Below are positions 7,839-20,916 of a stretch of 64,000 nt of DNA, piece after piece. A program made the translations under genes and the position numbers. The notes below the pieces were generated by a model. It saw only the letters and a program-made list of their open reading frames with translations, was not told where the DNA came from and made no database searches. This stretch comes from an uncultured Blastocatellia bacterium (GTDB lineage: Bacteria > Acidobacteriota > Blastocatellia > HR10), in contig CALHAI010000005.1 in assembly GCA_937934295.1 (NCBI GenBank), positions 119,272 through 183,271 on the forward strand, read 5' to 3'. How positions within the stretch are numbered: position 1 is the first letter of the stretch; every line of letters begins with the position of its first letter.

Positions 7839-7842
7839 AGCG

Positions 7843-7859
7843 CCGTCGAAGCGACGGCG
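7843..7859 (+). terminator. stem-loop GCCGTCG-AAG-CGACGGC just after the porin stop (no clear U-tract)
   Basis: Perfect 7-bp stem, 3-nt loop, 5 nt downstream of the TGA at 7836-7838. Confidence 0.35.
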
Positions 7860-8080
7860 ACCGCTCTCGCGCTCAGGCGCACGGGGACCGACCGAGGGGG
7901 ACCCGCTTCATCTGGCGAGGCGGATGAGGGTGAAACGCCAGATGGCCCCCTCTCGCACACTCACTTGGACTTCGACGCTCTCAAGGCGACGAAGCCATCA
8001 GCAGCAGGAAACAGGTCCGGGCGAGCTTTCCGCACGGGAATGGGTCTCACGCTCCGGAGAACACCTGCGCCTGAAGGACG

Positions 8081-9310
8081 TTATTTCTTCCCCTCCTTCG
8101 GCTCGACGTAGCTACGCCGGTGCTGGACTTCCAGGCGATCGTTATCGGGCTTGCCGTCGCCATCCACATCCACGAGAACCTGAATGCGGCGTCGTTTCCC
8201 CTCGCGACGAGGGTTCGTCGGCGTATAACCGAGCGTGTATTGCGTGCGCAGCATGACGGAGATGGATTCGAGCACCGAAGGCAAGGCACCCTGAAACCGG
8301 ACGCTGTAGAAGCGACCGCCGGTGACCTCGGCGAACGTCTTCAACGTGTTCTGCGCTTGCAAAAAGGTGAGACGCGATTCCGGCGGCAGCCGATGCTCGA
8401 GCAGAAGGTATGCCAACTCGCCAATGCCGATGGCATAGATGGGAACGCCCGCGTTCTCCACGATCTTGCGCGCCTCGTCGTAATTGATCTTGCTGAAGGT
8501 ATCGATCCCAATAGCGACGAGCAGAATGGCCGTGCGCCCCTCGATCTCCTCCAAGCCCGTATATTCGGCACCGTCCAGCTCTCCCCCCCGCAAGACGAAG
8601 TTCAAAGCATCGAAGAGATTGCTCTCGCTGAAAGCCGGATAGTTCCGAATGAGCACGTAGATGGCCTCGCGCAAGCGCGCCGGGCTATCGGTGAAATCCG
8701 TCAAGACAGCTGGTCGAATGTCGAAGGCGACGATGGCGATGTAATCGCCCGGTTTCACAAAGCGCGTCACAAAGAGCCCGGCCGGATTGATCACCTCCTC
8801 GCGGAACCATTCGATCTGCCGACTGTATTCGAGGAGCATCACGAGCGTGAGGGGCGACTCCTCGCCATTGAACGTCACGATCTCCTGTTTCACGCTGTCT
8901 TCCAGGACGGTGAAATTCTCCTTCCTCAATCCGGTGTATACGCGTCCCGTCTTCTTGTCGAAGACGACGACCGGTACGGTGACCAGATCGGCCTTAAGGC
9001 GAATGGGTTCGCCCTCGACCTGAACCGCTTTCTCCCGTCGAGTCGGAGGCTTCGGCTCCTGACCGGATGGCGCTGTCGAAGCCGCGGGCTTTTGTTCCTC
9101 GCCAGCAGGCTTCTCCGATGGAGGGGCTTGAGGCCGTTCGCGTCGCGGAGGGCGTCGGCCCGCTTGTTCACCCAACAGGGTTCCGCCTCCGGAAGGAGTG
9201 AAGAGGATGCCAACTAAGAACCCCACCAGGACGATCAGCGAGAGAAGTGACGTCCCACGCGATCCTCGGCTTCCCAGGGACGGTGTCGCGCTTCGTCGTA
9301 AGCTCATCAT
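8081..9310 (-). CDS. von Willebrand factor type A (VWA) domain protein, Acidobacterial-type VWFA-related
   Basis: GGAGG before the ATGATG start at 9310/9307. N-terminal TM/signal (LLSLIVLVGFLVGILF), a Pro/Lys/Glu-rich linker, then a VWA-like fold. The track ORF extends further upstream only because no in-frame stop occurs. Confidence 0.7.
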   Translation of the reverse strand: MMSLRRSATPSLGSRGSRGTSLLSLIVLVGFLVGILFTPSGGGTLLGEQAGRRPPRRERPQAPPSEKPAGEEQKPAASTAPSGQEPKPPTRREKAVQVEGEPIRLKADLVTVPVVVFDKKTGRVYTGLRKENFTVLEDSVKQEIVTFNGEESPLTLVMLLEYSRQIEWFREEVINPAGLFVTRFVKPGDYIAIVAFDIRPAVLTDFTDSPARLREAIYVLIRNYPAFSESNLFDALNFVLRGGELDGAEYTGLEEIEGRTAILLVAIGIDTFSKINYDEARKIVENAGVPIYAIGIGELAYLLLEHRLPPESRLTFLQAQNTLKTFAEVTGGRFYSVRFQGALPSVLESISVMLRTQYTLGYTPTNPRREGKRRRIQVLVDVDGDGKPDNDRLEVQHRRSYVEPKEGKK

Positions 9311-9452
9311 GGGTTCCTCCGCCGCCATAATGCTACCACCCCCGCATGGGTGCGGCAAGCAGCGAGGGCATGCTTGACTTCCAAATCCGCTCCATGCCAC
9401 TATCGGGTGCTTCGGACACGCGCGAGGTTGCCTGAGGGGGGATGCGAAGGCC

Positions 9453-10733
9453 ATGAAGGTGTTCGTCATCGGATCGGGGGGACGCGAGCATGCGATCGCA
9501 TGGACGCTGGCTCGAAGCGCGAGTGTCAGAGAGATCGTCGCGGCGCCGGGGAATGGGGGCCTGGCCGAGATCGCTCGCTGCGTGCACGCCGATGTCGGCG
9601 ATCCGGGCGAGCTGGCAGATGTAGCCGAGGCCGAAGGCGTTGCTTTGACATTCGTCGGCCCGGAGTTGCCATTGGTCCTTGGTGTCGCGGATGAGTTCTC
9701 CCGGCGTGGGCTCAAGATCATCGGCCCGGATGCGCGTGCGGCTCGCCTGGAAGGGAGCAAGGCCTTCGCCAAGGAATTCATGGCGCGGCACGGTATTCCG
9801 ACGGCGCGGTTCACGATCTGCGACTCCGCGGCCGAAGCTCGCCGCGCGATCGCTTCTCGGCGGTTCGACTTCCCCGTGGTGATCAAAGCGGACGGACTAG
9901 CCGCCGGGAAAGGCGTAAGTCTCGCGCATACGCATGAAGAGGCCGAGGCCACGATTGAGCGGCTCATGGTCGAGAGGGCGCTTGGAGCGGCGGGCGAGCG
10001 CGTCGTTCTGGAAGAATGCTTGATCGGGCGCGAATGCAGTTTCCTGCTCGTCACCGATGGGGAATTCGTCGTGCCATTGCCTCCGGCGCAAGATTACAAG
10101 CGCGCGTATGATGGCGATCAGGGGCCGAACACCGGCGGCATGGGGGCGATCTCCACGCCGCATCTTCTCGATGAGACCACCCATGAGCGCATCCTGAGGG
10201 AGATCGCTTGGCCGACGGTCCGCGCGGCGGCTCAAGAAGGCTTCCCCTATCGGGGGGTCCTCTACATCGGCCTTATGCTCACACCGAAAGGCCCGCACGT
10301 GCTCGAATACAACGTCCGCTTGGGCGACCCGGAAGCGCAAGCGATCCTACCGCGATTGGAGAGCGATCTGCTGGAGATCGGCGAAGCGCTCTTGGCTGGC
10401 GAACTCTCCCGCGTTCGCCTTCGATGGCGTGAGGATTCGACGGTCTGTCTGGTCCTGGCATCAGGCGGATACCCGGGGACCTACCAGACCGGCCACCCCA
10501 TCCGAGGCTTGGGGGAGGTGCGACGTCTTCCAGAGGTCATGGTCTTCCACGCCGGGACAACGCGCGCGCCCGATGGATCGTTCCTCACAGCCGGCGGTCG
10601 CGTCCTCAACATCGTCGCGCGCGGTCGCACCCTCGCGGAAGCGCGCCAGCGCGCTTACGCAGCCGCTTCGCTCATCACCTTCGAGCAGATGCACTACCGG
10701 CGCGATATCGGCGCGGAATGGACGCCGACGTGA
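9453..10733 (+). CDS. purD: phosphoribosylamine--glycine ligase
   Basis: MKVFVIGSGGREHAIAWTLARS... with ATP-grasp motifs. Full-length 426 aa. Confidence 0.9.
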   Translation: MKVFVIGSGGREHAIAWTLARSASVREIVAAPGNGGLAEIARCVHADVGDPGELADVAEAEGVALTFVGPELPLVLGVADEFSRRGLKIIGPDARAARLEGSKAFAKEFMARHGIPTARFTICDSAAEARRAIASRRFDFPVVIKADGLAAGKGVSLAHTHEEAEATIERLMVERALGAAGERVVLEECLIGRECSFLLVTDGEFVVPLPPAQDYKRAYDGDQGPNTGGMGAISTPHLLDETTHERILREIAWPTVRAAAQEGFPYRGVLYIGLMLTPKGPHVLEYNVRLGDPEAQAILPRLESDLLEIGEALLAGELSRVRLRWREDSTVCLVLASGGYPGTYQTGHPIRGLGEVRRLPEVMVFHAGTTRAPDGSFLTAGGRVLNIVARGRTLAEARQRAYAAASLITFEQMHYRRDIGAEWTPT

Positions 10734-10871
10734 GTCTGATCTCGTGGAAGAAGGGCGATTTCATACGCATGACCAGCGCCCGGAAGGGCGCCCAATCCGA
10801 GCATCGGACCGGGCTTGAAACCCCCTTCTGATCGGCGCGCTAGAAACTGAGCGCCGCTCGCAGAGTGATCG

Positions 10872-10893
10872 TTCGATTCCCGGTCGGGGCTCC
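10872..10893 (+). other. tRNA 3'-end-like fragment (T-loop TTCGATT + T-stem 3' CCCGG + acceptor 3' strand TCGGGGC + T + CC) with no matching 5' half
   Basis: Sequence ttcgattcccggtcggggctcc. The upstream sequence does not supply complementary T-stem or acceptor 5' strands, so this is not a complete tRNA. It may be an att-site or tRNA remnant. Confidence 0.35.
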
Positions 10894-11115
10894 GATCGCG
10901 TTGAATGCTTTGGGATGGCTCTTCAGTTTCGCTCTCGCCCGCCGTGTTGTCTTGAACGGTCTGAGGGGGAAACTCTTCGGACTCCGCCTAGTGGGAATGT
11001 GGGTGACCCACAGCATGTCAACGAACAGGGAGACGCGGGCCGCGGTGGGGTATGACCTTTTCTGAATTCGTCCCAAACCGAAGCTGGCGCCGAGATCTCG
11101 ATAAAAAGAGGCGGG

Positions 11116-12105
11116 TCACCGTCGCTGGGAGAAGCGTTCTGCTCGCCGCTTGAGGGTATGGGCGTACAAGAGGCGCGAGATCTCGGCGATGAGCCGGTTG
11201 GCGTTCCGCTCCTCGGCCACCCCGCGCGTGAGCACGACAAGCACGTAGGGTGGACCGAAGGGCGGATAGATGATCCCCGCATCGTGCGCGATTCGAGTGA
11301 TCGCTCCCGTTTTATGCGCCACGCGCACGTCCGCGGGCAGATCGGCCGGAATGCCGTCGTGGAATTCCTGATCGAGCAGAATTCGCACCATCGCCTCGCA
11401 GCTCTCGCGCGAGATGACGTGTCCTTCGAGAAGGTGCCGGAAGATCACAAGCAGCGCGCGCGCCGTCGTCGTATTATTGAGCCCGCGCTCGAAGGCTTTG
11501 CGATCCTCCACGCCTCGAAGCACGCGCATCTCATCGGCGCCTAATTCGCGCATCAGCTCTTGGACGCGCGCGGCCGTGACCCGCTCGATGAGGAGGTTCG
11601 TCGCCAGGTTGCTGCTCCGCACGATCATGGCGCGCACCAGTTCGCGGATCGTCACCGCGTGCCCGATCTTCTCATAGAGCGCGGGATCGGAATCGCTCTC
11701 CGCTGCGAGAGCGAACGCGCTGCCATCGGCGAGGCTTCGGAACTCGTTCTTGACGATGAGGCGATCATCGAGAGCGAGTCGCCCTTCTTGCGCCTGCCGG
11801 AAGACCTCCATCATCACCGGCACCTTCATCAGGCTCGCCGCATGGAACGATTCGTCCGCGCGAAGGAGTAGCTCCTCCCCGGTCATGGGATCGAAATAGG
11901 CGACGGCGACGGCCTCCGCGCCGCTGGCGGCGATCACTTCCATAAGGCGCGCCCTCACGTCAGCTTGATGAAAGAGGGTCAAGGGGGGACCCAGAGCTCC
12001 CAACAGCAGGAGAGCGATCACGCGCCGCCCAGCTCGCGAATCGGACGCGGCTCCGAAATGACGCACGGAAGAACCTCCCCCCTCACGTTCTTGCCGATCC
12101 GCCAC
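11116..12105 (-). CDS. serine hydrolase, class A beta-lactamase-like (SxxK, SxN, KTG motifs), secreted
   Basis: Signal peptide RRVIALLLLGALGPP. Motifs SLMK, SSN and HKTG at class-A-like spacing. Confidence 0.75.
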   Translation of the reverse strand: MADRQEREGGGSSVRHFGAASDSRAGRRVIALLLLGALGPPLTLFHQADVRARLMEVIAASGAEAVAVAYFDPMTGEELLLRADESFHAASLMKVPVMMEVFRQAQEGRLALDDRLIVKNEFRSLADGSAFALAAESDSDPALYEKIGHAVTIRELVRAMIVRSSNLATNLLIERVTAARVQELMRELGADEMRVLRGVEDRKAFERGLNNTTTARALLVIFRHLLEGHVISRESCEAMVRILLDQEFHDGIPADLPADVRVAHKTGAITRIAHDAGIIYPPFGPPYVLVVLTRGVAEERNANRLIAEISRLLYAHTLKRRAERFSQRR

Positions 12106-12316: not shown

Positions 12317-13084
12317 ATGTGGCAACGACTCAAACGGCTCTTACGAGCCATCTTCGGAGGGCTCATCGAACGAGCGGAGGATCCGGAGCTGATCCTGCAG
12401 CAGGTCATCCGCGATATGCGCGACAAGCTCCCTCAGATGAACGAGAACGTCGCCCAGGTCATGGCCACGCAAAAGCTCCTGGAGAAGGAGGTCGCAACTC
12501 TAGAGCGAGAGATCACCGAGTTCGATGCTAAGATCCGCGCCGCCATCAAGCAGGGACGAGATGATCTCGCGACGGCTTTCATCAGCGCGTTGCAGGAGAA
12601 ACAGGTCGCTCTGGAGCGTTCGCGTCAGCAATTGGAGGCCGCACGCCGCGCTTCGGAGCAAGCGATCCGTTTCCGCGACAACTACATCCTGCAGCTCAAG
12701 AAGCGACAGCAAGAAGCCATGCAATTGATCGCCGAGCATCGCCGCGCCCGCATTCAGGAGCAACTGGCGCAGACGATGGCGAGCTTTCAGCTCGGCGATG
12801 AAGCGGGGACGTTCGAGGAGATGCGGGAGAAAGTCGCGCGGCGCGCGGCGGCCGCTGAGGCGAAGATGGAATTGGCGGCCACGGGCGTCGAGAGCCAGAT
12901 CGTGGAGATCGAGAAGGAAGCGCTCTCGATGCAGGTCCAGGATATGCTGATCGCTTACAAGCGGCAGATGGGCTTGCTGCCTGAAGTTCCGGCCCCGGAG
13001 ACGGCTGCGCTCCCGGAGAAGACGCTCGGACCAGCCGAAGAGGAAGCGACGCGCTCTGAGCCGCTGAAGACCACCGAAGGATGA
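12317..13084 (+). CDS. pspA: PspA/IM30 (Vipp1) family protein
   Basis: GGAGG before the ATG at 12317. MWQRLKRLLRAIFGGLIERAEDPELILQQVIRDM... is the canonical PspA N-terminus, followed by long coiled coils. Confidence 0.85.
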   Translation: MWQRLKRLLRAIFGGLIERAEDPELILQQVIRDMRDKLPQMNENVAQVMATQKLLEKEVATLEREITEFDAKIRAAIKQGRDDLATAFISALQEKQVALERSRQQLEAARRASEQAIRFRDNYILQLKKRQQEAMQLIAEHRRARIQEQLAQTMASFQLGDEAGTFEEMREKVARRAAAAEAKMELAATGVESQIVEIEKEALSMQVQDMLIAYKRQMGLLPEVPAPETAALPEKTLGPAEEEATRSEPLKTTEG

Positions 13085-13100
13085 GTCGAATCCGGCACAC

Positions 13101-13118
13101 TGCTGCGCGCGCAGTTTT
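13101..13118 (+). terminator. rho-independent terminator after pspA (palindrome CTGCGCGCGCAG + TTTT)
   Basis: 12-nt perfect GC palindrome (13103-13114) followed by TTTT (13115-13118), 17 nt after the pspA stop. Confidence 0.55.
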
Positions 13119-13205
13119 CCTTCAGCCCGGGCAGTCCCTGGGCGCCTCAAGGGACGGCCGGAAGCTTCGCCGCGCTTGGCGGTGAAGACGCATGGGGATC
13201 TCACG

Positions 13206-14024
13206 ATGCCGAGAAAAATCGCTTACGTCTGGGAAGCGCTCAAAGAGCCGGTGAACCTCTGGGCGATCGTCGGCGTGCTCGCCGCCGCCATTTATGCCCC
13301 TCCGCCTCTGGAGCACATCATCCTGCTCGGCGGGGCTGTGGCCGAGGCCCTTTACCTGATGACGGTGCCGGCGACGACCGCGTATCAACGCCTGGTGGAG
13401 CGCCGGCAGCGGCAGCGCGCGACCTTGGAACGCCAACGGGCTCGCGAGGAGCTGATCAAGTCCTTCGACCCGCGCGAGCGAGAGGCTGTCGAATATCTTC
13501 GCTGGCTGAAGAAGCAGATCTACGCCAACTACATGCGCTTCACCCGCTCCAAGGATGTGCCCGCCGATATTCGCACGCTCGATGCCATGTGGGAGCGCTT
13601 CGTGGATTTCCTCGACCTCTATCGCCGCTGCAAGACACACCTTCGAGCGTTCAATCGTCAAGCCATCGCGAACCAGATCGCGCAGGCGGAGCGCCAGGTG
13701 GCCTCGGCCGATGAGAAGGCCCGCAAGGTGATCGAGAACAACCTGAACATCTTGCGCGCGCGCATGGCGGAATATGAGAGCATCGAACGGGCCACGAAGC
13801 TTCTCGAAGCGCAGCTTCAAACGATCGAGAACTTCTTTGGGTTGGTCAACGATAAAGTCATGACGATGTCCTCAGTCGAGAGCATCGCGGCGCTCGATTT
13901 CGAATCGGTGCTCTCAAGCATCGAGATGACGCGCTCGGTCCTGGAGGAGACAGCGCCGATCATGAGCGCTCTGGAGGCCCTGGAGCGCGAGCAGGCGCCG
14001 CCGCTGACGCCCGAGCGCCCATAG
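13206..14024 (+). CDS. hypothetical membrane-anchored coiled-coil protein (PspA-neighbour)
   Basis: One or two N-terminal hydrophobic helices, then ~200 aa of heptad-rich charged helix. No recognisable catalytic motif. The track start at 13176 is possibly too early. Confidence 0.5.
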   Translation: MPRKIAYVWEALKEPVNLWAIVGVLAAAIYAPPPLEHIILLGGAVAEALYLMTVPATTAYQRLVERRQRQRATLERQRAREELIKSFDPREREAVEYLRWLKKQIYANYMRFTRSKDVPADIRTLDAMWERFVDFLDLYRRCKTHLRAFNRQAIANQIAQAERQVASADEKARKVIENNLNILRARMAEYESIERATKLLEAQLQTIENFFGLVNDKVMTMSSVESIAALDFESVLSSIEMTRSVLEETAPIMSALEALEREQAPPLTPERP

Positions 14025-14028
14025 CGTC

Positions 14029-15744
14029 ATGTCGCGATCGAAGCCTTTCCTCTCGCTCGAGGAGATCGCGCGCCTGCCGCGTTGGGCGGGCGAGCTGGCG
14101 CGGAGGTATTACGCTGGCGAAGCGAGCCATTTCCTCCTCCATCACAACATCTTCGACCTCATCCCGGCGAACGGCCAATATGTGGATCTGCGCACCTTCT
14201 TGCAGCGGAAGCTGCTCGGGAACAAGAACGTCGTCTTCTACAATCGAAGCGCAGGGATCACCTTCAGCTCCTCGGAGGTGGAGCGCCAATTCCTCGCCCA
14301 CGCGCGCGTGGCCGATCCGCTCCTCAGCCGCGAGGTCCTGCGGGCGCTCCCGCGAGAGCCGAGTCGCGCTCTCCCGCTCATCGAGCGCTACCTCTTTCAC
14401 GGCGATCAGGTCGCCGTCATCCTCACCTTCCTGGAGACGCTGGTCCCAGCCGGGGAGATCGGATACCTGAATGGGGAGGATCGAAACACGCTCGTCACGC
14501 TGCAACGTTGGATCACCAGCTCGCGCTTGCTGCATTCGGACAACATCGTCATCCTCATCGCCGAGAGCCTCGCCGATGTCAATGCGCGCCTTCGGCAGAA
14601 TTCCCGTCTGGTGACGATCGAGATCCCTTATCCCGATGAAGCCGAGCGCTTCGACTTCATCCGCCACTTCCGCACGCACTATCCCCACGTGAAGATGGAA
14701 ATGGACGAGCGCCGACTCGCGCAACTCACTTCGGGCTTGAATTGCGTCCACCTCAGCGCGCTCTTGCGGAGCGCGCACTTGGACGCGCGCGGATTGACCT
14801 TCGAGGCCGTCCGATTGAAGAAGAAAGCGATCATCGAGAGCGAATGCTTCGGACTCATCGAACTCGTGACGCCAGAGCATGGGCTGGAGAGCGTCGGCGG
14901 GATGAAGAGCGCGAAAGACTTCCTCCGCAGCATCGCCGAAACGATCCGGCAAGGCCGGTGGGAGGAAGCGCCGATGGGCCTCCTCATCTCCGGGCCCGTC
15001 GGGACGGGGAAGACGTTCCTGGCCGAATGCTTCGCGAAAGATTGTGGGTTGAACGTCGTCGAGTTCAAGAATTTTCGCGAGAAGTGGGTGGGCTCGACCG
15101 AGGCGAACCTGGAGAAGATCCTCAGCTTACTGCAGACGCTGGCGCCGATCGTCGTGCTCATTGATGAAGCCGATGCCGCACTGGGGACGCGGCGCACCGA
15201 AGGCGACAGCGGCGTGAGCGCCCGCGTCTTCTCTCGGATCGCGAGCGCGATGGGCGATACGCGAAATCGAGGGCGCATCCTCTGGATCCTCATGACTTGT
15301 CGCCCAGATCTGCTCCCCATTGATTTGAAGCGGCAGGGTCGTTGCGAGGAGCACATCTCGCTCTTCTATCCGCAGAGCGAAGAGGAACGACTGGAGATCG
15401 TTCACGCCATGCTGCGGAAGAACATGATCCGGCATGCCATCGAGGATTGGTCGCCCATCACTCGGCATCCGCAGGAGCTCTCCGGCGCCGACATCGAATC
15501 CATGCTCATTCGCGCGCGCCGCTTGGCCCGACAAGCGCAGCGGGACGTCGTCCTCCCCGAAGACCTCGAACGCGTCGCCCGCGAATTCATTCCGGCACGC
15601 GATGAGCTGGCCCTGGAATACCAAACGCTCGTGGCGATCCTGGAAGCGACCTCGCGCGAGATGATTCCGCCGAAATACCGACACCTCTCCCCGACCGAGA
15701 TCAGCCGCCGCGTGGAAGAGCTGAAGATTCTCCTCGGCGAATGA
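14029..15744 (+). CDS. AAA+ ATPase (classical AAA clade; Walker A GPVGTGKT, Walker B VVLIDEADA, SRH TCRPDLL) with ~300-aa N-terminal domain
   Basis: Motifs read directly. Starts 5 nt after the upstream gene's stop. Confidence 0.85.
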   Translation: MSRSKPFLSLEEIARLPRWAGELARRYYAGEASHFLLHHNIFDLIPANGQYVDLRTFLQRKLLGNKNVVFYNRSAGITFSSSEVERQFLAHARVADPLLSREVLRALPREPSRALPLIERYLFHGDQVAVILTFLETLVPAGEIGYLNGEDRNTLVTLQRWITSSRLLHSDNIVILIAESLADVNARLRQNSRLVTIEIPYPDEAERFDFIRHFRTHYPHVKMEMDERRLAQLTSGLNCVHLSALLRSAHLDARGLTFEAVRLKKKAIIESECFGLIELVTPEHGLESVGGMKSAKDFLRSIAETIRQGRWEEAPMGLLISGPVGTGKTFLAECFAKDCGLNVVEFKNFREKWVGSTEANLEKILSLLQTLAPIVVLIDEADAALGTRRTEGDSGVSARVFSRIASAMGDTRNRGRILWILMTCRPDLLPIDLKRQGRCEEHISLFYPQSEEERLEIVHAMLRKNMIRHAIEDWSPITRHPQELSGADIESMLIRARRLARQAQRDVVLPEDLERVAREFIPARDELALEYQTLVAILEATSREMIPPKYRHLSPTEISRRVEELKILLGE

Positions 15745-15917
15745 GCGGCGAGGGCATCGTCGGCGTCCGAGCGGCTCCCGGGCGAGGATGAGGTGCTCGG
15801 CGCGATCCGTCGAGGCTTTCCATGATCTCCACCAAGGCTCCGCGCGCGGATGATCTCCTCGGTTGCTCTCGAACTCCCCTCAGCTTACAATGGGCCCCGA
15901 CGAAGGAGGGAAGGGCG

Positions 15918-17624
15918 ATGAGGAACATGGCGGTGATGAGCGCATTCTCGCTGAGCGTTCTGATGGGGATGCCCTTTTTCGCTTGGAAGAGGATCGAATC
16001 CGGCACCGCCGTTCAGGATCGATGGCAGGCGCGTTCGATGGTGATCTCGCGCCACGGCATCGTCGCGAGCGAACATCCGCTGGCGTCGCAAGTGGGCGCG
16101 ATGATCTTGGCGCGCGGAGGGCATGCTGTGGATGCCGCGATCGCGGCCAATGCCGTGATGGGGCTGGTCGCTCCGATGAGCAACGGGATTGGGGGCGATC
16201 TGTTCGCGCTCGTCTACGATGCACGAACCGGTCGGCTTCACGGATTGAATGCCAGCGGGTGGGCGCCATCGGGATTGACGATCGAAGACCTCAAACGCCA
16301 AGGGCATACGAGGATGCCCCAGCGCGGTGTCCACACGGTGACGGTCCCCGGGGCTGTAGACGGATGGGCGAAGCTGCACGCGCGCTTCGGACGCGCGAAA
16401 TGGGCCGACCTTTTCGCCGCAGCGATCCGCTATGCGGAGGAAGGCGTCCCCATCACGGAACTGGTCGCCGCGCTTTGGGCGGCCAACGAGCGCCTGCTGC
16501 GCCAGAACGAGTCGGCCGCGCGGACGTATCTGCCCGAAGGCCGCGCGCCGCGCGTCGGCGAGATCTTTCGCAATCCCGATCTCGCATGGAGCTATCGGCA
16601 GATCGCCGCGCACGGTCCTGACACCTTCTACAAGGGCGCGATCGCACGACGCCTGCTGGACACCCTTGGACGACATGGGGGGACGATGACGGCTGCCGAT
16701 CTCGCGGAGTTCTCCAGCGAATGGGTCGAACCGCTCTCGACGACGTATCGCGGGTGGACCGTCTACGAGCTTCCGCCGAATGGACAAGGCATCGCCGCCC
16801 TGATCATGCTGAACATCATGGAGCAATTCCCTCTGAGGGAATTCGGACAGAATTCGGCGTATGCCCTTCATGTCATGATCGAGGCGAAGAAACTCGCCTA
16901 CGCGGATCTGATCCGCTACGTCGCCGATCCGCGTTTCGCGCGCGTCCCCGTCTCCGGTCTTCTCTCGAAGGAGTACGCGCGCGAACGCGCTCGTCACATT
17001 GATCCCGCGAAAGCGCGTTGCGAGGTCGAACCTGGGAAGCCTGTGGACGTCGGGGATGAGACCGTGTACCTGAGCGTCGTGGATCGGGAGGGGAACATGG
17101 TCTCCCTCATCCAGAGCATCTACGAGAGCTTCGGGTCCGGACTCGTCGCCGAAGGGACGGGCTTCGCGTTGCAGAATCGCGGGGCGCTCTTCAGCTTCGA
17201 TCCGACGCATCCGAACGCTCTGGCGCCGAGAAAACGCCCCCTGCATACGATCATCCCCGCCCTCATGGAACGAGGGAGCGTGCGCATCGCCTTCGGCATC
17301 ATGGGCGGGTGGAATCAGGCGCAGGCGCACGCGCAGTTCGTCTCCCACGTTGTGGATCACGGGATGAACATCCAAGAGGCGCTCGAAGCCGCGCGCTTCA
17401 CCAAACGGACTTTCGGCGGCTGCGACGTGCAGATCGAAGCGCGCGTCCCCGAACGCGTGCGCGAGGAGCTTCAGGCTCTCGGCCATCAACTCCAGGTGCG
17501 CGGTGCCTACTCCTCGCAGATGGGGGGCGGACAGGCCGTCGCGCGGGATTTCACGACCGGGGTGAACTTCGGAGCTTCTGATCCGCGGAAAGATGGCGCC
17601 GCGGTTCCGGAACCGCCGCTATGA
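15918..17624 (+). CDS. ggt: gamma-glutamyltranspeptidase
   Basis: AAGGAGGG before the ATG at 15918. Signal peptide present. Conserved GGT regions (GGDLFALVYD, autoprocessing-site Thr region ...ETVYLSVVD..., GGWNQAQ). The track start at 15822 is probably too early. Confidence 0.85.
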   Translation: MRNMAVMSAFSLSVLMGMPFFAWKRIESGTAVQDRWQARSMVISRHGIVASEHPLASQVGAMILARGGHAVDAAIAANAVMGLVAPMSNGIGGDLFALVYDARTGRLHGLNASGWAPSGLTIEDLKRQGHTRMPQRGVHTVTVPGAVDGWAKLHARFGRAKWADLFAAAIRYAEEGVPITELVAALWAANERLLRQNESAARTYLPEGRAPRVGEIFRNPDLAWSYRQIAAHGPDTFYKGAIARRLLDTLGRHGGTMTAADLAEFSSEWVEPLSTTYRGWTVYELPPNGQGIAALIMLNIMEQFPLREFGQNSAYALHVMIEAKKLAYADLIRYVADPRFARVPVSGLLSKEYARERARHIDPAKARCEVEPGKPVDVGDETVYLSVVDREGNMVSLIQSIYESFGSGLVAEGTGFALQNRGALFSFDPTHPNALAPRKRPLHTIIPALMERGSVRIAFGIMGGWNQAQAHAQFVSHVVDHGMNIQEALEAARFTKRTFGGCDVQIEARVPERVREELQALGHQLQVRGAYSSQMGGGQAVARDFTTGVNFGASDPRKDGAAVPEPPL

Positions 17625-17670
17625 CGTCGTGCATGGGGCTCGGACTCCACGCCCCTGGAATCGAAGGGGA

Positions 17671-18822
17671 TCATTCCAGCCGCCGTCGGAAGCGCCAGAT
17701 GCTCACGCTGAAGACGGTCAGGCCAAACAGCAGCAGCGCCATCATCTGCGGCCAGAGGACGGCGATCCCCGTCCCCTTCAAAAACACCCCCCGCACGATC
17801 TCCAGGAAATACCGCACGGGATTCGCATAAGTGAGATACTGTACGGGCACGGGCATATTCCGAATCGGGAAGGCGAATCCGCTCAGCGTGAAGGCCGGCA
17901 TGAAGAAGAAGAACGAGGCGAGCATCGCCTGCTGCTGCGTCTGAGAGATCGTCGAGAGGAAGACGCCCACGCCGAGCGTCGTCATGACAAAGAGGATCGC
18001 GCTGAACAGGAGGACGACGGCGCTCCCCCGAAATGGGACGCGAAATATGAGCAGCGCCGCACTCGTCACCAGAACGACATCCACAAGACCGATGAGGGCG
18101 AACGGCGCGGTCTTCCCGAGGACGAATTCCACCGGGCGAATGGGCGTCACCAAGAGTTGTTCCATCGTCCCCAGCTCGCGTTCGCGCACGATGGCCATCG
18201 CCGTGAGGATCAACGTGACGATCGTGATGATGTTGACCAGAACACCGGGGACGAAATAGTTCCGGCTGCGAAGATCGGGATTGAACCAGACGCGCGTCCG
18301 CACGTCCAGCTCAGGAATGGCGATCGGCGCGCCGCGCTCGAAGGCGAGCGCTCTCAACGCGCGTTGTTCCCGCTCGACCATCACCTCGTCGGCATAGCGA
18401 AGGATGACACGCGTCGCGTAGGTGGTGAGGATGGAGGCCGTGTTCGAGTTCGTCCCCTCGATGAGGATCTGCACGGCGACCGTCTCGCCTCGCTTCACCT
18501 GCTCGGCGAAGCCCGGCAGCACGCGCACGAACATGAGGACGCGCCCGCGGTCCAAAAGCTCACGCCCCTCCTCCTCCCGCGCGGGCGTGGCGACCACGCG
18601 AAAATGGGGCGAGCCGTCAAACGCCGCCCGCAGGGCGCGACTGGCCGGCGTCCGATCGCCATCCATCCACGCGATTGGCGCGCGCTCCACATCCAGATTG
18701 ACGGCATAGCCGAAGATCGTGAGTTGAATCACTGGGGGCAAAAACAACAGGACGCGCATCCGCGGCTCGCGCAGCGCCTGCCGCCACTCCTTCCGAATCA
18801 TCTCTCGAATGCGAGCCCACAC
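17671..18822 (-). CDS. ABC-2 family transporter permease (YbhR/YbhS-like)
   Basis: N-terminal cytoplasmic region, one TM helix, a large periplasmic loop, then 5 TM helices: the ABC-2 topology. Confidence 0.8.
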   Translation of the reverse strand: MWARIREMIRKEWRQALREPRMRVLLFLPPVIQLTIFGYAVNLDVERAPIAWMDGDRTPASRALRAAFDGSPHFRVVATPAREEEGRELLDRGRVLMFVRVLPGFAEQVKRGETVAVQILIEGTNSNTASILTTYATRVILRYADEVMVEREQRALRALAFERGAPIAIPELDVRTRVWFNPDLRSRNYFVPGVLVNIITIVTLILTAMAIVRERELGTMEQLLVTPIRPVEFVLGKTAPFALIGLVDVVLVTSAALLIFRVPFRGSAVVLLFSAILFVMTTLGVGVFLSTISQTQQQAMLASFFFFMPAFTLSGFAFPIRNMPVPVQYLTYANPVRYFLEIVRGVFLKGTGIAVLWPQMMALLLFGLTVFSVSIWRFRRRLE

Positions 18823-18823
18823 C

Positions 18824-19957
18824 TCACGCCACTCCTCGCCGCACGCGCCGCGTGGCGAGGGCGAAGACCACTCCCGCGTACCCGATCAGAAACACCACCT
18901 CCCCCACGAGCAACTCCAGGCCGATCCCCTTCAGAAAGAGGCCACGCAAGATCACAATGAAATATCGCGCCGGGACGAGATAGGTCAGTCCTTGCACCAT
19001 CGGCGGCATGTTCTCGATGGCGAAGATGAAGCCCGAGAGCAGAAAGGCCGGCAGAAACGATGTGAGCACGCCCAGTTGATACGCGAGCACTTGCGAGCGC
19101 ACGAGCGCGGAGATGAGCACCCCCCACCCGAGCGCGCCAAACAGAAAGAGCCCCCCCATCAGGATGACCAGGAGCGGATCGCCGCGCAGCGGCACGCGGA
19201 AGAAGGCGACACCCACTACGAGCGCGATGAGCATATCGAGCAGGCCGATCGTGAAGAACGCGAGCATCTTCCCGAGCACGATCTCAGAAGCGCGCACTGG
19301 CGTCGAGAGCAATTGCTCCATCGTCCCCACCTCCCACTCGCGCGCGATGGTGAGCGAGGTGAGCAAGGCGGCAATGATCATCAGGATGATGGCGATCAAT
19401 CCGGGGACGATGTAATGGCGCGACCGCAGCTCGCTGTTATACCAGACGCGCACGCGCGGCTCCAGCGGAGGCTCCACTCTCGTCCCCGTCGCGCGCCGTA
19501 GGACCGAGATCTGCCACGCTCCGGCGTGCGCCCGCAGCACGGCCTCCGCGTAGCCGAGAGCAATCGAAGCCGTATTCGAATCGCTCCCATCGAAGAGGAG
19601 CTGGATCGAAGCGCGCTCCCCACGAAGCCATCGGCGCGAATAGTCGGAGGGGATCACCAGCGCCATCAAGCAGCGATTGCGGTCCATCTCGCGCGCGATG
19701 CTCGCTTCGTCTTCGACCATGCCGATCACGTCAAAGAAGCGCGAACCGGCGAAGCGCGCGATCAGCTCTCGACTCTGCGGGCTGTCGTCGGCATCCCGCA
19801 CGAGCATGGGGATGCGATCCACGTCCAGCCGCAGCGCATACCCGAACAGCAGGAGCAGGACCACGGGCACGGCGAGCGCCAACAGCAGGCTCCTCGGATC
19901 GCGCCGAATGTGGAGAAATTCCTTCCGAGCCATGGCCCACGTCCGCCGCCACGTCAT
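18824..19957 (-). CDS. ABC-2 family transporter permease (second copy)
   Basis: Paralogous to the downstream permease. 4-nt overlap with the upstream ATPase gene. Confidence 0.8.
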   Translation of the reverse strand: MTWRRTWAMARKEFLHIRRDPRSLLLALAVPVVLLLLFGYALRLDVDRIPMLVRDADDSPQSRELIARFAGSRFFDVIGMVEDEASIAREMDRNRCLMALVIPSDYSRRWLRGERASIQLLFDGSDSNTASIALGYAEAVLRAHAGAWQISVLRRATGTRVEPPLEPRVRVWYNSELRSRHYIVPGLIAIILMIIAALLTSLTIAREWEVGTMEQLLSTPVRASEIVLGKMLAFFTIGLLDMLIALVVGVAFFRVPLRGDPLLVILMGGLFLFGALGWGVLISALVRSQVLAYQLGVLTSFLPAFLLSGFIFAIENMPPMVQGLTYLVPARYFIVILRGLFLKGIGLELLVGEVVFLIGYAGVVFALATRRVRRGVA

Positions 19958-20916
19958 CGCTCGCTCCGCTCACTCGCTTCGATCACGGCCACGAAGACGT
20001 CTTCCATCGAGGGCGGGATGACCTCCATCCGAGAGATCGTGATCCCCCGTGCTTGCAAGAGATGTCGGATCCGCTCGCTCGCCCGATGCGGATCGCGGAT
20101 GCGAAGATGGAGGCCGGCGCCGGAGAACGCGATGTGTTCGACCGTCTCCTCTCGCTCAAGCACCTTCACGCTCTCCAGCACGTCCGAGGGTTCAACGCGC
20201 AGGAACGCCACCGAGGAGAGCGCTCGCACGAGAGCCGCCGGCGCGTCAAGCGCGATGATCCTCCCCCGATGCATGAGCGCCAGCCGATGGCAGTATTCCG
20301 CCTCGTCCATATAATGCGTCGTCACGAGGATCGTATGACCGGCTTCCGAAAGGCGCGCGATCATCTCCCAGAACTGGCGACGCGCGATCGGATCAACGCC
20401 CGAGGTCGGCTCGTCGAGAAAGAGGATCGGCGGCTCATGCACGAGCGCACAGGCGAGCGCCAATCGCTGCTTCCACCCGCCAGGGAGCACGCGCACGAGC
20501 GCGCGCCGCCGCGCGGTGAGCCCGACCATCTTCAAGACCTCTTCCAGGCGTTCGCGTCGGCGCTCGCGCGGAACGCCATAGAGGCCGCTGAAGAACTCCA
20601 CGTTCTCCTCGACGGTCAAATCCTCATAGAGGGAGAATCGCTGTGACAGATAACCGATGCGCCGCTTGACGGGTTCGGCCTGCGTCAGGACGTCGAGGCC
20701 ATCTACGCGCACGCACCCCTCCGTCGGCAGGAGCAATCCACAGAGGATGCGAATCGTCGTGGATTTGCCCGCGCCATTCGGTCCGAGGAGCCCGAAGATC
20801 TCTCCCCGCTGCACGCGAAAGCTGACGCGATCCACGGCGACGAACGGGCCGAATCGCTTGACCACCCCCTCGACCTCAATGGCCCACTTCGCCGACGTCG
20901 GTTCAGCCATACTCAC
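19954..20916 (-). CDS. ABC transporter ATP-binding protein
   Basis: Walker A GPNGAGKST, signature LSGGWKQR, Walker B ILFLDEPTSG. Confidence 0.85.
   Translation of the reverse strand: MSMAEPTSAKWAIEVEGVVKRFGPFVAVDRVSFRVQRGEIFGLLGPNGAGKSTTIRILCGLLLPTEGCVRVDGLDVLTQAEPVKRRIGYLSQRFSLYEDLTVEENVEFFSGLYGVPRERRRERLEEVLKMVGLTARRRALVRVLPGGWKQRLALACALVHEPPILFLDEPTSGVDPIARRQFWEMIARLSEAGHTILVTTHYMDEAEYCHRLALMHRGRIIALDAPAALVRALSSVAFLRVEPSDVLESVKVLEREETVEHIAFSGAGLHLRIRDPHRASERIRHLLQARGITISRMEVIPPSMEDVFVAVIEASERSER

What the first reader, a model, noticed from the sequence alone, without database searches (positions are those of the whole stretch)
12317..15744. PspA/Vipp1 (bacterial ESCRT-III) followed by a membrane coiled-coil protein and a classical-clade AAA+ ATPase
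Seen: pspA (with its own strong terminator at 13101-13118), then 85 nt later a membrane-anchored, almost purely coiled-coil 270-aa protein, then 5 nt later a 571-aa classical AAA ATPase (GPVGTGKT / VVLIDEADA / TCRPDLL SRH) with an unknown ~300-aa N-domain. Established: PspA/Vipp1 are ESCRT-III superfamily members, and in archaea and eukaryotes ESCRT-III polymers are remodelled by the Vps4 AAA ATPase, whose AAA module belongs to this same classical clade. Inference: the trio may be a membrane-remodelling/repair module with a Vps4-like disassembly ATPase. The coiled-coil middle protein has no recognisable family.
Basis: partly seen in the sequence, partly recalled or inferred. Interest (0 to 1): 0.55.

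Follow-up and report, generated by a model that had tools for sequence, protein, structure and literature searches.

The report
PspA operon with tandem AAA ATPase
Three co-directional genes for a PspA membrane-repair protein, a membrane-anchored helical protein and a two-domain AAA ATPase form a module conserved in several bacterial phyla; it is the best current candidate for the ATP-driven remodeller that bacterial PspA is thought to lack, but it was already predicted computationally in 2024 and the ATPase is Cdc48-like, not Vps4.

Summary
pspA (12317-13084), a 272-aa membrane-hairpin helical protein (13206-14024) and a 571-aa AAA ATPase (14029-15744) lie head to tail. The "unknown" N-domain of the ATPase is a degenerate AAA module, so the protein is a tandem D1(dead)-D2(active) AAA. 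Its closest profile is CDC48, not Vps4/CdvC, and it has no MIT domain.

The linkage is conserved. In Blastocatellia, 63 of 72 loci with enough flank carry pspA, the middle gene and the ATPase. In a second clade, 27 of 30 loci carry pspA (ATPase ~42%, PspA ~38%, middle protein ~22% identical). Four of those loci could be named: Balneola, Myxococcales (two) and Ca. Acidoferrum. Extra genes are often inserted, such as an ABC transporter cassette or a TonB_C protein.

This matches the operon of Ravi et al. 2024 (PspA ... "TM+Snf7" -> "inactive-AAA+AAA"). I could not reproduce the Snf7 assignment of the middle protein. The PspAs carry a conserved C-terminal [E/D/Q]KT[L/I][G/A] tail motif.

Verdict: a new member, in minimal three-gene form, of a predicted but untested system. 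Functional coupling is well supported. A Vps4-like mechanism is plausible by analogy, not by orthology.

The parts
12317..13084 (+). pspA: PspA/IM30 (bacterial ESCRT-III superfamily) protein, 255 aa. It has an N-terminal amphipathic helix (MWQRLKRLLRAIFGGL) and a ~40-aa C-terminal tail that E. coli PspA lacks.
   Evidence: Pfam PF04012, 1.9e-28, 100 bits, residues 2-216. 58 distinct Blastocatellia homologues were aligned. E. coli PspA is 222 aa and has no tail.
13016..13030 (+). Conserved tail motif EKTLG (PspA residues 234-238; family pattern [E/D/Q]KT[L/I][G/A]). It is a candidate docking or engagement motif for the ATPase or the membrane adaptor; that role is an inference.
   Evidence: A strict regular expression ending in G matches 58 of 59 Blastocatellia PspAs and 15 of 28 PspAs in the second clade. 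By eye, nearly all of the remaining second-clade PspAs carry EKTIA or KT[LV]G. The motif sits within an otherwise variable tail.
13099..13115 (+). Weak terminator-like hairpin after pspA (5-bp stem, then TTTTCC). It may be a partial terminator that sets a high ratio of PspA to downstream products.
   Evidence: Found by the consensus scan, which gave 5 sites against 3.2 expected. Fold z-score is -0.78. A hairpin of different sequence and without a U-tract occurs in relatives.
13206..14024 (+). Middle gene: 272-aa inner-membrane protein. A conserved N-terminal motif (Y..EA.KEP.N) is followed by two hydrophobic helices and then a ~215-aa all-helical cytoplasmic domain. It is homologous to the gene directly upstream of the ATPase in the six-gene operons, which the literature labels 'SIG+TM+Snf7'.
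   Evidence: 3350 homologues at E<=1e-3, none of the 120 listed with a Pfam domain. Alignment A2. AF2 model. An HMM of this family hits the gene upstream of the ATPase in 47 of 67 second-clade loci, E 1e-22 to 1e-33.
13254..13370 (+). Membrane hairpin of the middle protein (residues 17-31 and 37-55). It contains invariant E47, Y50 and P55 and is followed by an Arg-rich stretch, so both termini are predicted to be cytoplasmic.
   Evidence: Invariant columns in A2. AF2 helices 15-30 and 35-53. Topology follows the positive-inside rule and is an inference.
14029..15744 (+). Tandem AAA ATPase, 571 aa: a conserved N-terminal helix (LP.WA...Y.AG), a degenerate D1, an active D2 and two extra C-terminal helices.
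14062..14853 (+). D1: degenerate AAA module (residues ~12-275). FLLHHNIFD replaces Walker A and VAVILTFLETLVP sits in the Walker B position. It is probably a scaffold for hexamerisation and partner binding.
   Evidence: hhalign of D1 against D2 of the same family: probability 94.2%, E = 1.1e-7, 177 columns. Motif positions.
14884..15588 (+). D2: active classical AAA module. Walker A is at 14992-15015, pore loop 1 (KWVG) at 15082-15093, Walker B at 15151-15177, and the SRH with R435/R438 at 15295-15354.
   Evidence: These motifs are invariant in alignment A1. Coordinates. Best PDB hits are p97/CDC48 D2, 6e-41.

Best explanation
The region encodes the minimal three-gene core of a conserved bacterial envelope module.

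Shown:
1. The first gene is a PspA of the ESCRT-III superfamily.
2. The second is an inner-membrane protein anchored by a helical hairpin, with a large helical domain predicted to face the cytoplasm.
3. The third is a tandem AAA ATPase. Its first AAA domain has lost the nucleotide-binding motifs. Its second keeps Walker A, Walker B, arginine fingers and an aromatic pore loop.
4. The three genes stay linked across several phyla.

Inferred mechanism:
- PspA polymerises on stressed or damaged inner membrane.
- The hairpin protein marks the site and recruits the ATPase hexamer to the membrane. It plays the role that MIT-MIM contacts play for Vps4.
- The active D2 ring engages a PspA subunit, possibly through the conserved flexible C-terminal tail bearing the EKT(L/I)G motif. 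It then threads or pulls that subunit out of the polymer.
- This disassembles, recycles or reshapes PspA assemblies at the cost of ATP.

The ATPase would therefore be a functional analogue of Vps4, built from a Cdc48-like tandem AAA rather than from a Vps4 orthologue. In larger versions of the operon, an ABC transporter cassette with an OmpA-fused binding protein, or a TonB_C protein, couples this to the cell wall or periplasm.
For: Gene identities.

Tandem AAA with a dead D1:
- hhalign of D1 against D2 gives 94% probability, E = 1e-7.
- D2 catalytic and pore-loop residues are invariant in 19 homologues.

Synteny:
- 63 of 82 Blastocatellia loci, and 63 of the 72 with at least 6 kb of upstream sequence, have pspA -> middle gene -> ATPase.
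- In a second clade 27 of 30 loci have pspA and 24 of 30 have both pspA and the middle gene. The middle gene is directly adjacent to the ATPase in 40 of 67 loci.
- Between the clades the ATPase is ~42% identical, PspA ~38% and the middle protein ~22%.
- Source names were recovered for four second-clade loci: Balneola, Myxococcales (two) and Ca. Acidoferrum.
- The linkage survives different insertions: an ABC cassette, a TonB_C gene, ECH plus CNNM, and a MacB-type ABC.

Other support:
- A conserved tail motif is present in the linked PspAs and absent from E. coli PspA.
- Ravi et al. 2024 reached the same contextual inference.
- Reviews state that how PspA polymers are disassembled is unknown.
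Against: - There is no experimental evidence for any step.
- The substrate of the ATPase is unknown.
- No MIT or other known ESCRT-III-binding domain is present.
- The ATPase family is much wider than the PspA link. Relatives at 30-40% identity sit next to unrelated genes (L083, L084 and Paenibacillaceae megaplasmids).
- 9 of 72 Blastocatellia loci, including Chloracidobacterium, have the ATPase without pspA within 7 kb.
- PspA from Synechocystis has its own weak ATPase activity (PMC11746142), so an external motor is not obligatory.
- The role of the tail motif is pure inference, with a single-protein negative control.
Confidence: 0.5

Rival explanations
1. Membrane-protein quality control. 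The tandem AAA is a Cdc48/Msp1-like extractase that pulls damaged or mis-inserted proteins out of the inner membrane, guided by the hairpin protein. PspA is only co-expressed to seal the resulting lesions and is not the substrate.
For: - The closest profiles and structures are Cdc48/p97, Pex1/6, Rix7 and FtsH-type unfoldases.
- One distant relative lies directly after an M50/PDZ membrane protease and near HSP20 genes (L084).
- The ATPase family occurs without PspA in many contexts.
Against: - The recurrent, order-preserving linkage is specifically with pspA across phyla, despite variable inserted genes.
- The linked PspAs carry a conserved extra tail motif.
- No protease partner is encoded in the window operon.
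Confidence: 0.2
2. Assembly chaperone for a trans-envelope complex. The ATPase and the hairpin protein assemble or energise an envelope-spanning apparatus (ABC transporter with OmpA-fused binding protein, a TonB_C protein, or a MacB-type ABC), with PspA as a sub-membrane scaffold. The window carries a reduced remnant of this system.
For: - Most second-clade operons insert an SBP-OmpA / permease / ABC ATPase cassette between pspA and the middle gene.
- All 44 loci among the 63 complete Blastocatellia operons that have a ~1.0-1.4 kb gap between the middle gene and the ATPase carry a homologue of the L054 TonB_C gene.
- L166 has a MacB/FtsX ABC instead.
- Ravi et al. propose a chaperone-like assembly role.
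Against: The envelope components are variable and dispensable. 19 Blastocatellia loci, the window itself and L125 have only the three core genes. The conserved core is therefore PspA plus the hairpin protein plus the ATPase.
Confidence: 0.15
3. The ATPase is a true bacterial Vps4 orthologue, and the trio is an ESCRT-III/Vps4 system inherited or transferred from archaea. This is the strong reading of the first reader's idea.
Against: - There is no MIT or Vps4_C domain.
- The architecture is a tandem AAA.
- CdvC scores 46 bits against a cut-off of 650 and is below CDC48, PAN and FtsH. The ranking is the same in 5 other members, one of which has no CdvC hit at all.
- The SRH is of the R-x-G-R type.
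Confidence: 0.03
4. There is no functional link: the adjacency reflects inherited gene order within one lineage, or the genes belong to an anti-phage defence island.
For: - The terminator-like hairpin and 121-nt gap after pspA could mean separate transcription.
- The ATPase shows weak generic similarity to the IetA/IteA defence ATPases.
Against: - The linkage recurs in a second clade with named members from other phyla, with rearranged intervening genes.
- Flanking genes differ between loci while the trio stays together.
- PADLOC hits are only generic AAA similarity, 52 bits, and no partner protein is found.
Confidence: 0.05

Closest known systems
PspA-associated 'inactive classical AAA + classical AAA' operons with a membrane-anchored 'divergent Snf7' (Ravi et al. 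2024, mSystems, PMC11237479; examples AEY64320/AEY64321 in Clostridium sp. BNL1100 and OGG56892.1 in Ca. Handelsmanbacteria)
   Same: - The ATPase has the same architecture, with the N-terminal AAA inactive.
- It is adjacent to PspA in the same way.
- The window's middle protein is homologous to the gene occupying the 'SIG+TM+Snf7' position in operons with exactly the published gene order: PspA -> PBPb+OmpA -> permease -> ABC ATPase -> TM protein -> tandem AAA (L123).
   Different: - The window has only the three core genes, with no ABC cassette.
- It comes from thermophilic Blastocatellia, a lineage not named in the passages of the paper that I read.
- I could not retrieve the paper's example sequences for direct comparison.
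- I could not reproduce the Snf7 assignment of the middle protein.
ESCRT-III / Vps4 (CdvB / CdvC) of archaea and eukaryotes
   Same: An ESCRT-III-superfamily polymer gene is linked to a classical-clade AAA ATPase with an aromatic pore loop. The proposed logic is the same: ATP-driven extraction of subunits through a flexible C-terminal tail.
   Different: - There is no MIT domain, Vps4_C domain or beta-domain.
- The ATPase is a tandem AAA with a dead D1.
- The SRH is of the RxGR type.
- The CdvC profile scores far below its cut-off and below CDC48.
- The polymer is PspA, not Snf7/CdvB.
- An extra membrane-hairpin partner is present.
Cdc48/p97/VAT, Pex1-Pex6, Rix7/NVL and NSF (type II tandem AAA unfoldases)
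   Same: - One ring is degenerate, as in Pex1/6 D1 or NSF D2.
- D2 gives the best sequence match to p97 D2 (6e-41).
   Different: - There is no double-psi barrel N-domain.
- D1 has lost Walker A entirely.
- The TIGR01243 score is 96 bits against a cut-off of 803.
- At 571 aa the protein is much shorter.
- The genomic context is specific to PspA.
PspF-PspA of Proteobacteria
   Same: An AAA+ protein is genetically linked to PspA and controls its state.
   Different: PspF is an NtrC-type enhancer-binding protein with a Fis-type HTH, divergently transcribed from pspA. It regulates sigma-54 transcription and is inhibited by PspA. The protein here has no HTH, belongs to the classical AAA clade and lies in the same transcriptional direction.
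Haloarchaeal Vps4-like ATPase with a Cdc48/VAT-type N-domain next to a PspA-like gene (Makarova et al. 2024, PMC10936438/PMC11188069)
   Same: A non-MIT, Cdc48-flavoured AAA ATPase is encoded beside a PspA-like ESCRT-III gene.
   Different: It is archaeal, has a single AAA module with a VAT-type N-domain, and is accompanied by winged-helix proteins. Homology to the present family was not tested.
LiaI-LiaH, PspB/C-PspA and Rv2743c-Rv2744c membrane anchors
   Same: A small inner-membrane protein is encoded next to a PspA homologue and presumably positions it.
   Different: There is no sequence similarity. The middle protein has a much larger conserved cytoplasmic helical domain and co-varies with an ATPase.

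Membership tests
PspA/IM30 (ESCRT-III superfamily) | Match to the PspA_IM30 profile above the curated threshold, over the full helical core | tested here: met
   PF04012: 100 bits against a cut-off of 33.9, residues 2-216 on profile positions 3-216 of 220. The equivalog TIGR02977 scores only 60 bits against 243, so this is not the proteobacterial PspA orthologue.
PspA/IM30 (ESCRT-III superfamily) | Formation of rods, rings or carpets, and membrane binding through the N-terminal amphipathic helix | not testable with these tools
   The N-terminal MWQRLKRLLRAIFGG is conserved, but polymerisation requires experiment.
Classical AAA ATPase (PF00004) | Walker A GxxGxGK[ST], Walker B hhhhDE, second region of homology with arginine fingers, and an aromatic pore loop | tested here: met
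   GPVGTGKT at 322-329, VVLIDEAD at 375-382, KWVG at 352-355, RPD...KRQGR at 425-438, all invariant in 19 homologues. PF00004 at 1.5e-26.
Vps4/CdvC (meiotic-clade AAA) | N-terminal MIT domain that binds ESCRT-III MIM motifs | tested here: not met
   No MIT hit in Pfam at E<=1. The N-terminal 275 residues are a degenerate AAA domain.
Vps4/CdvC (meiotic-clade AAA) | Single AAA module with a Vps4_C helix, and best similarity to Vps4/CdvC profiles | tested here: not met
   CdvC NF041006 scores 45.8 bits against a cut-off of 650 and ranks below CDC48, PAN and FtsH. CDC48 is also top in 5 further members, with CdvC lower or absent. No Vps4_C hit. A formal phylogeny was not possible.
Vps4/CdvC (meiotic-clade AAA) | SRH of the R-R-F/L type rather than R-P-G-R-F-D (pattern recalled from my own knowledge of the families, not checked here) | tested here: not met
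   The window reads KRQGRCEE and the wider family reads RPGRFD.
CDC48/p97/VAT family | Double-psi barrel N-domain plus two active AAA modules, with a score above the TIGR01243 cut-off | tested here: not met
   96 bits against 802.65. No CDC48_N-type hit. D1 lacks Walker A.
PspA-linked 'inactive AAA + AAA' family (Ravi et al. 2024) | Two AAA modules in one polypeptide, the N-terminal one inactive | tested here: met
   [not shown]
PspA-linked 'inactive AAA + AAA' family (Ravi et al. 2024) | Conserved neighbourhood with PspA, with or without a membrane-anchored helical protein and an ABC/PBPb-OmpA cassette | tested here: met
   63 of 72 loci in the first clade and 27 of 30 in the second. L123 reproduces the published six-gene order.
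PspA-linked 'inactive AAA + AAA' family (Ravi et al. 2024) | Direct sequence homology to the paper's examples (AEY64320.1, OGG56892.1 and neighbours) | not testable with these tools
   Those accessions could not be retrieved. Equivalence is inferred from identical architecture and gene order.
Snf7/ESCRT-III (for the middle protein) | Detectable profile similarity to Snf7 or PspA | tested here: not met
   0 of 28 and 0 of 9 members hit Snf7 or PspA in Pfam at E<=1 and E<=10 respectively. hhalign against the co-encoded PspA family gives 0.5% and 0.16% probability. The profile search of PDB sequences found nothing. No Snf7 profile was available for a direct profile-profile test.
Snf7/ESCRT-III (for the middle protein) | ESCRT-III fold: a long alpha1-alpha2 hairpin with packed alpha3-alpha5 | tested here: inconclusive
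   [not shown]

The most novel reading that the evidence does not exclude
Some bacteria possess a dedicated ATP-driven disassembly and remodelling machine for their ESCRT-III protein. A Cdc48-like tandem AAA hexamer is docked at the inner membrane by a hairpin-anchored helical adaptor. It recognises a conserved C-terminal EKT(L/I)G tail motif in PspA and threads subunits out of the polymer. This would be an independent, or very ancient, solution equivalent to Vps4-MIT/MIM. It would contradict the current textbook statement that bacteria lack such an ATPase. If its fold is confirmed, the adaptor might itself be a membrane-tethered ESCRT-III relative that co-polymerises with PspA.
Probability: 0.35. 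Interest if true: 0.8.

Novelty: new member of a known kind. Interest (0 to 1): 0.5.

Why it matters
- How bacterial PspA/Vipp1 polymers are disassembled and recycled is an open question. A 2025 review states that a Vps4-like ATPase 'appears absent in bacteria' (PMC7619361). Structural work suggests that unknown chaperones may do the job (PMC11746142).
- This module is the most concrete genomic candidate for that activity.
- The window offers its simplest form: three genes from a thermophilic lineage, whose proteins are likely to suit biochemistry and cryo-EM.
- The conserved PspA tail motif and the membrane-hairpin adaptor give specific, mutable handles for testing recruitment.
- If the prediction holds, ATP-driven ESCRT-III remodelling would not be an archaeal/eukaryotic invention. 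It would have arisen at least twice from different AAA lineages.
- The idea is not new. It was published as a computational prediction (bioRxiv DOI 10.1101/2020.09.24.301986; mSystems 2024).

Tried and rejected
2. **Formal AAA phylogeny with Vps4, katanin, spastin, FtsH and Cdc48.** No reference sequences could be fetched with the tools. I used profile-score ranking, PDB ranking, architecture and the SRH signature as proxies.
3. **The search for related loci with a 20-sequence N-domain alignment.** A 6-sequence alignment worked, but it returned only Blastocatellia.
4. **A third protein search with a diverse profile.** It again listed mostly Blastocatellia. The two distant hits looked up have no PspA nearby.
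5. **afdb50 fold search.** The library was not available.
6. **Anti-phage defence.** PADLOC found only generic AAA similarity to IetA, so I rejected this.
7. **Plasmid search for control PspAs.** There was no match at 1e-8. Only E. coli PspA served as a control for the tail motif.
8. **Structured RNA in or around the operon.** There is no Rfam match at E<=0.1, and the intergenic fold is not unusual.
9. **Sigma-70 promoter in front of the middle gene.** None was found on the + strand.

Full report
**1. What is in the sequence**

The six-frame ORF list shows three co-directional genes on the + strand.

- **PspA, 12317-13084 (255 aa).** It matches Pfam PspA_IM30 at 100 bits against a cut-off of 33.9, across residues 2-216. 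It scores far below the proteobacterial PspA equivalog. GGGAGG lies 11 nt before the ATG.
- **Middle gene, 13206-14024 (272 aa).** An alignment of 28 homologues fixes the start at MPRKIAY.
- **ATPase, 14029-15744 (571 aa).** It starts 4 nt after the middle gene's stop. It carries GPVGTGKT, KWVG, VVLIDEADA and TCRPDLLPIDLKRQGR at residues 322-329, 352-355, 375-383 and 423-438. PF00004 hits residues 318-444.

The window holds only one copy of each gene.

The scan finds such sites at close to the chance rate. The 121-nt spacer folds no better than shuffled sequence (z = -0.78). Close relatives have a different hairpin without a U-tract at the same place. A partial terminator or stabiliser is therefore possible but weak. 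No Rfam family matches the region.

**2. The ATPase is a tandem AAA with a dead first domain**

- The AF2 model (pLDDT 77.6) shows an alpha/beta domain plus a helical lid in residues ~30-275. A second such unit occupies residues 290-520.
- I built profiles from 73 family members (72 representatives plus the window). The N-terminal half aligns to the C-terminal AAA half with 94% probability (E = 1e-7, 177 columns). VAVILTFLETLVP falls on Walker B, and the lid helices are in register.
- FLLHHNIFD stands where the P-loop should be.

It is not a MIT domain.

The N-domain alone retrieves 1193 50%-identity clusters at E<=1e-3, most of them 560-620 aa. This is a large family.

**3. Which AAA lineage**

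- NCBIfam ranks the window protein as CDC48 (96 bits) > PAN (91) > FtsH (67) > CdvC (46). All are far below their cut-offs.
- CDC48 is also the top profile for five diverse family members. CdvC is lower in four and absent in one.
- The top sixty PDB sequence hits are p97/CDC48 D2, AFG2, NVL and Rix7, followed by a proteasomal Rpt. The best E-value is 6e-41.
- The second region of homology reads KRQGRCEE here and RPGRFD in most of the wider family. From my own knowledge, that is the Cdc48/FtsH/proteasomal pattern. The R-R-F/L pattern of Vps4, katanin and spastin is absent.
- I could not build a formal tree because reference sequences were not retrievable.

On these proxies the protein forms its own classical-AAA lineage. 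It is nearest to Cdc48 D2 and is not a Vps4 orthologue.

**4. The middle protein**

- It has 3350 homologues at E<=1e-3, and none of the 120 listed carries a Pfam domain.
- Conserved features are:
  - an N-terminal Y..EA.KEP.N motif;
  - two hydrophobic helices with invariant E47, Y50 and P55;
  - an Arg-rich stretch;
  - FDPREREAVEYLRW;
  - a conserved C-terminal helical region.
- AF2 (pLDDT 76) predicts the hairpin (helices 15-30 and 35-53) followed by helices 58-85, 89-113, 120-148, 151-167, 170-219 and 232-263.
- No member hits Snf7 or PspA in Pfam: 0 of 28 at E<=1 and 0 of 9 at E<=10.
- A family profile finds nothing relevant in PDB sequences.
- hhalign against the co-encoded PspA family gives 0.5% probability. 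With deeper alignments it gives 0.16%.
- Foldseek finds nothing significant.

The published label 'divergent Snf7' is therefore neither confirmed nor excluded.

**5. Conservation of the neighbourhood**

*Blastocatellia clade.* A genome scan with the N-domain returned 80 loci, all Blastocatellia or Acidobacteriota MAGs. The closest, at 92-99% amino-acid identity, is JAUQQC010000004.1; Bacterium HR08 is also close.

- Together with two further loci, 63 of 82 carry pspA -> middle gene -> ATPase in that order.
- Among the 72 loci with at least 6 kb upstream, 63 have the trio and 9 have neither partner. Chloracidobacterium is among those 9.
- Nineteen have the compact form seen in the window.
- Forty-four have one more gene between the middle gene and the ATPase. 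In L054 it encodes a 345-aa protein with a hydrophobic N-terminus and a TonB_C domain, and homologues of it are present in all 44.
- Flanking genes differ between loci.

*Second clade.* I scanned metagenomes with a different sub-clade of the ATPase family. It is ~42% identical to the window ATPase, its PspA ~38% and its middle protein ~22%.

- Of 30 loci with at least 5.5 kb upstream, 27 have pspA and 24 have both partners.
- Of 67 loci with at least 1 kb upstream, 47 have the middle gene, and in 40 it is directly adjacent to the ATPase.
- The commonest layout (L123) is PspA -> NMT1-type binding protein fused to OmpA -> permease -> ABC ATPase -> middle protein -> tandem AAA.
- Variants include a bare trio (L125) and PspA -> small coiled-coil protein -> middle protein -> enoyl-CoA hydratase -> CNNM/CorC -> ATPase (L130). 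L166 has PspA -> 508-aa protein -> ABC ATPase -> FtsX/MacB -> ATPase with no middle gene.
- Source names attach four of these loci to Balneola sp., Myxococcales (two) and Ca. Acidoferrum.

*Limits of the linkage.* More distant ATPase relatives have no PspA nearby. These include L083, L084 (next to an M50/PDZ protease and HSP20 genes) and Paenibacillaceae megaplasmids. The link is therefore specific to part of the family.

**6. A conserved PspA tail motif**

The linked PspAs extend ~35-40 residues beyond the Pfam domain. Inside a variable linker they share [E/D/Q]KT[L/I][G/A], which is EKTLG at residues 234-238 in the window.

- A strict regular expression ending in G matches 58 of 59 Blastocatellia sequences and 15 of 28 second-clade sequences. 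By eye, nearly all of the remaining second-clade sequences carry EKTIA or KT[LV]G.
- E. coli PspA (222 aa) has no such tail. This is a single control.
- A plasmid search for more controls found nothing.

The motif is a candidate recruitment or engagement site, by analogy with MIM motifs. This is inference only.

**7. Literature**

- Ravi et al. [quoted passage not shown] They infer ATP-dependent membrane remodelling comparable to Snf7-Vps4.
- Their Handelsmanbacteria example has the same gene order as L123.
- A 2025 review still states that a Vps4-like ATPase appears absent in bacteria.
- Structural work on PspA rods invokes unknown chaperones for disassembly.
- I found no experimental study of this ATPase.

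**8. Interpretation**

*Shown:*
- the identities of the three genes;
- the tandem architecture with a dead D1 and an intact D2;
- the conserved linkage across phyla despite variable insertions;
- the conserved tail motif.

*Inferred:*
- The hairpin protein tethers or recruits the ATPase hexamer at the inner membrane.
- D2 threads PspA subunits, perhaps starting from the tail. This would disassemble or remodel the polymer.

I give the mechanism about 0.5 confidence. Functional coupling of the three genes is much more secure. The rivals, in order of likelihood, are a membrane-protein extractase with PspA as a co-induced sealant, and an assembly chaperone for a trans-envelope complex. A true Vps4 orthologue and chance or defence-island adjacency are disfavoured.

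**9. Verdict**

The Vps4 kinship is not supported: the ATPase is analogous, not orthologous.

The window adds a minimal three-gene form in thermophilic Blastocatellia, a four-gene TonB_C variant in related Blastocatellia, and the tail motif.

- Novelty: new member of a known (predicted, untested) kind.
- Interest: 0.5. It bears directly on an open question, but it is not new.

Noticed in passing
L054:5737-6774 and the equivalent gap in 44 of the 63 complete Blastocatellia operons (e.g. L020, L052, L061): Most Blastocatellia relatives have a four-gene version. In L054 a ~345-aa protein with a hydrophobic N-terminus and a C-terminal TonB_C domain is inserted between the middle gene and the ATPase, and homologues are present in all 44 gap loci. 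The window and its closest relatives lack it.
   Followed up: partly
window 13016-13030 (PspA residues 234-238); A short motif, [E/D/Q]KT[L/I][G/A], is conserved in the otherwise variable C-terminal tail of PspAs linked to this ATPase, in two clades only 38% identical to each other. E. coli PspA has no tail. It may be a recruitment motif.
   Followed up: partly
L130:3446-3901, L103:3416-3886, L144:3436-3903: In the Balneola-type operons a ~150-aa protein lies between pspA and the middle gene. It gives a weak hit to the PspA HMM (E 1e-4 to 5e-6) and has no significant Pfam domain. It may be a truncated second PspA-like or coiled-coil partner.
   Followed up: no
L166:3445-6943: One second-clade locus links PspA and the tandem AAA through a 508-aa protein of unknown family plus a MacB/FtsX-type ABC transporter, and has no middle gene. 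This suggests interchangeable membrane partners.
   Followed up: no
L085, L086, L087 (Paenibacillus, Aneurinibacillus and Brevibacillus megaplasmids): Full-length homologues of the tandem AAA (~30% identity) sit among small hypothetical genes, ArdA, DUF262, SLT and NrnB in conjugative-type plasmid regions, with no PspA. The family evidently has other, unrelated roles.
   Followed up: no
L084:6024-9707: A distant family member (40% identity in the N-domain) starts 13 nt after an M50 peptidase with PDZ domains, and two HSP20 genes lie nearby. This hints at a proteostasis role for that branch.
   Followed up: no
L078, L079, L081 (Chloracidobacterium sp. and relatives), match 7001-8026: These ATPases carry an insertion of ~57 residues in the degenerate D1 (628 aa in total) and are not linked to pspA or the middle gene within 7 kb.
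   Followed up: no
window 8081-12105 and 15822-20916: The flanking genes look unrelated to the module. On one side are a VWA-like protein (-), purD (9453-10733, +) and a class A beta-lactamase-like gene (11116-12105, -). On the other are a gamma-glutamyltranspeptidase-like gene (15822-17624, +), two ABC-2 permeases and an ABC ATPase (17671-20916, -). These assignments come from reading the translations only.
   Followed up: no
record titles (e.g. L004, L010, L045, L077): Several MAG contigs that clearly encode the Blastocatellia-type trio are labelled 'uncultured Clostridia', 'Heliobacteriaceae' or 'Heliomicrobium' in their records. These are probably binning or taxonomy-label errors.
   Followed up: no
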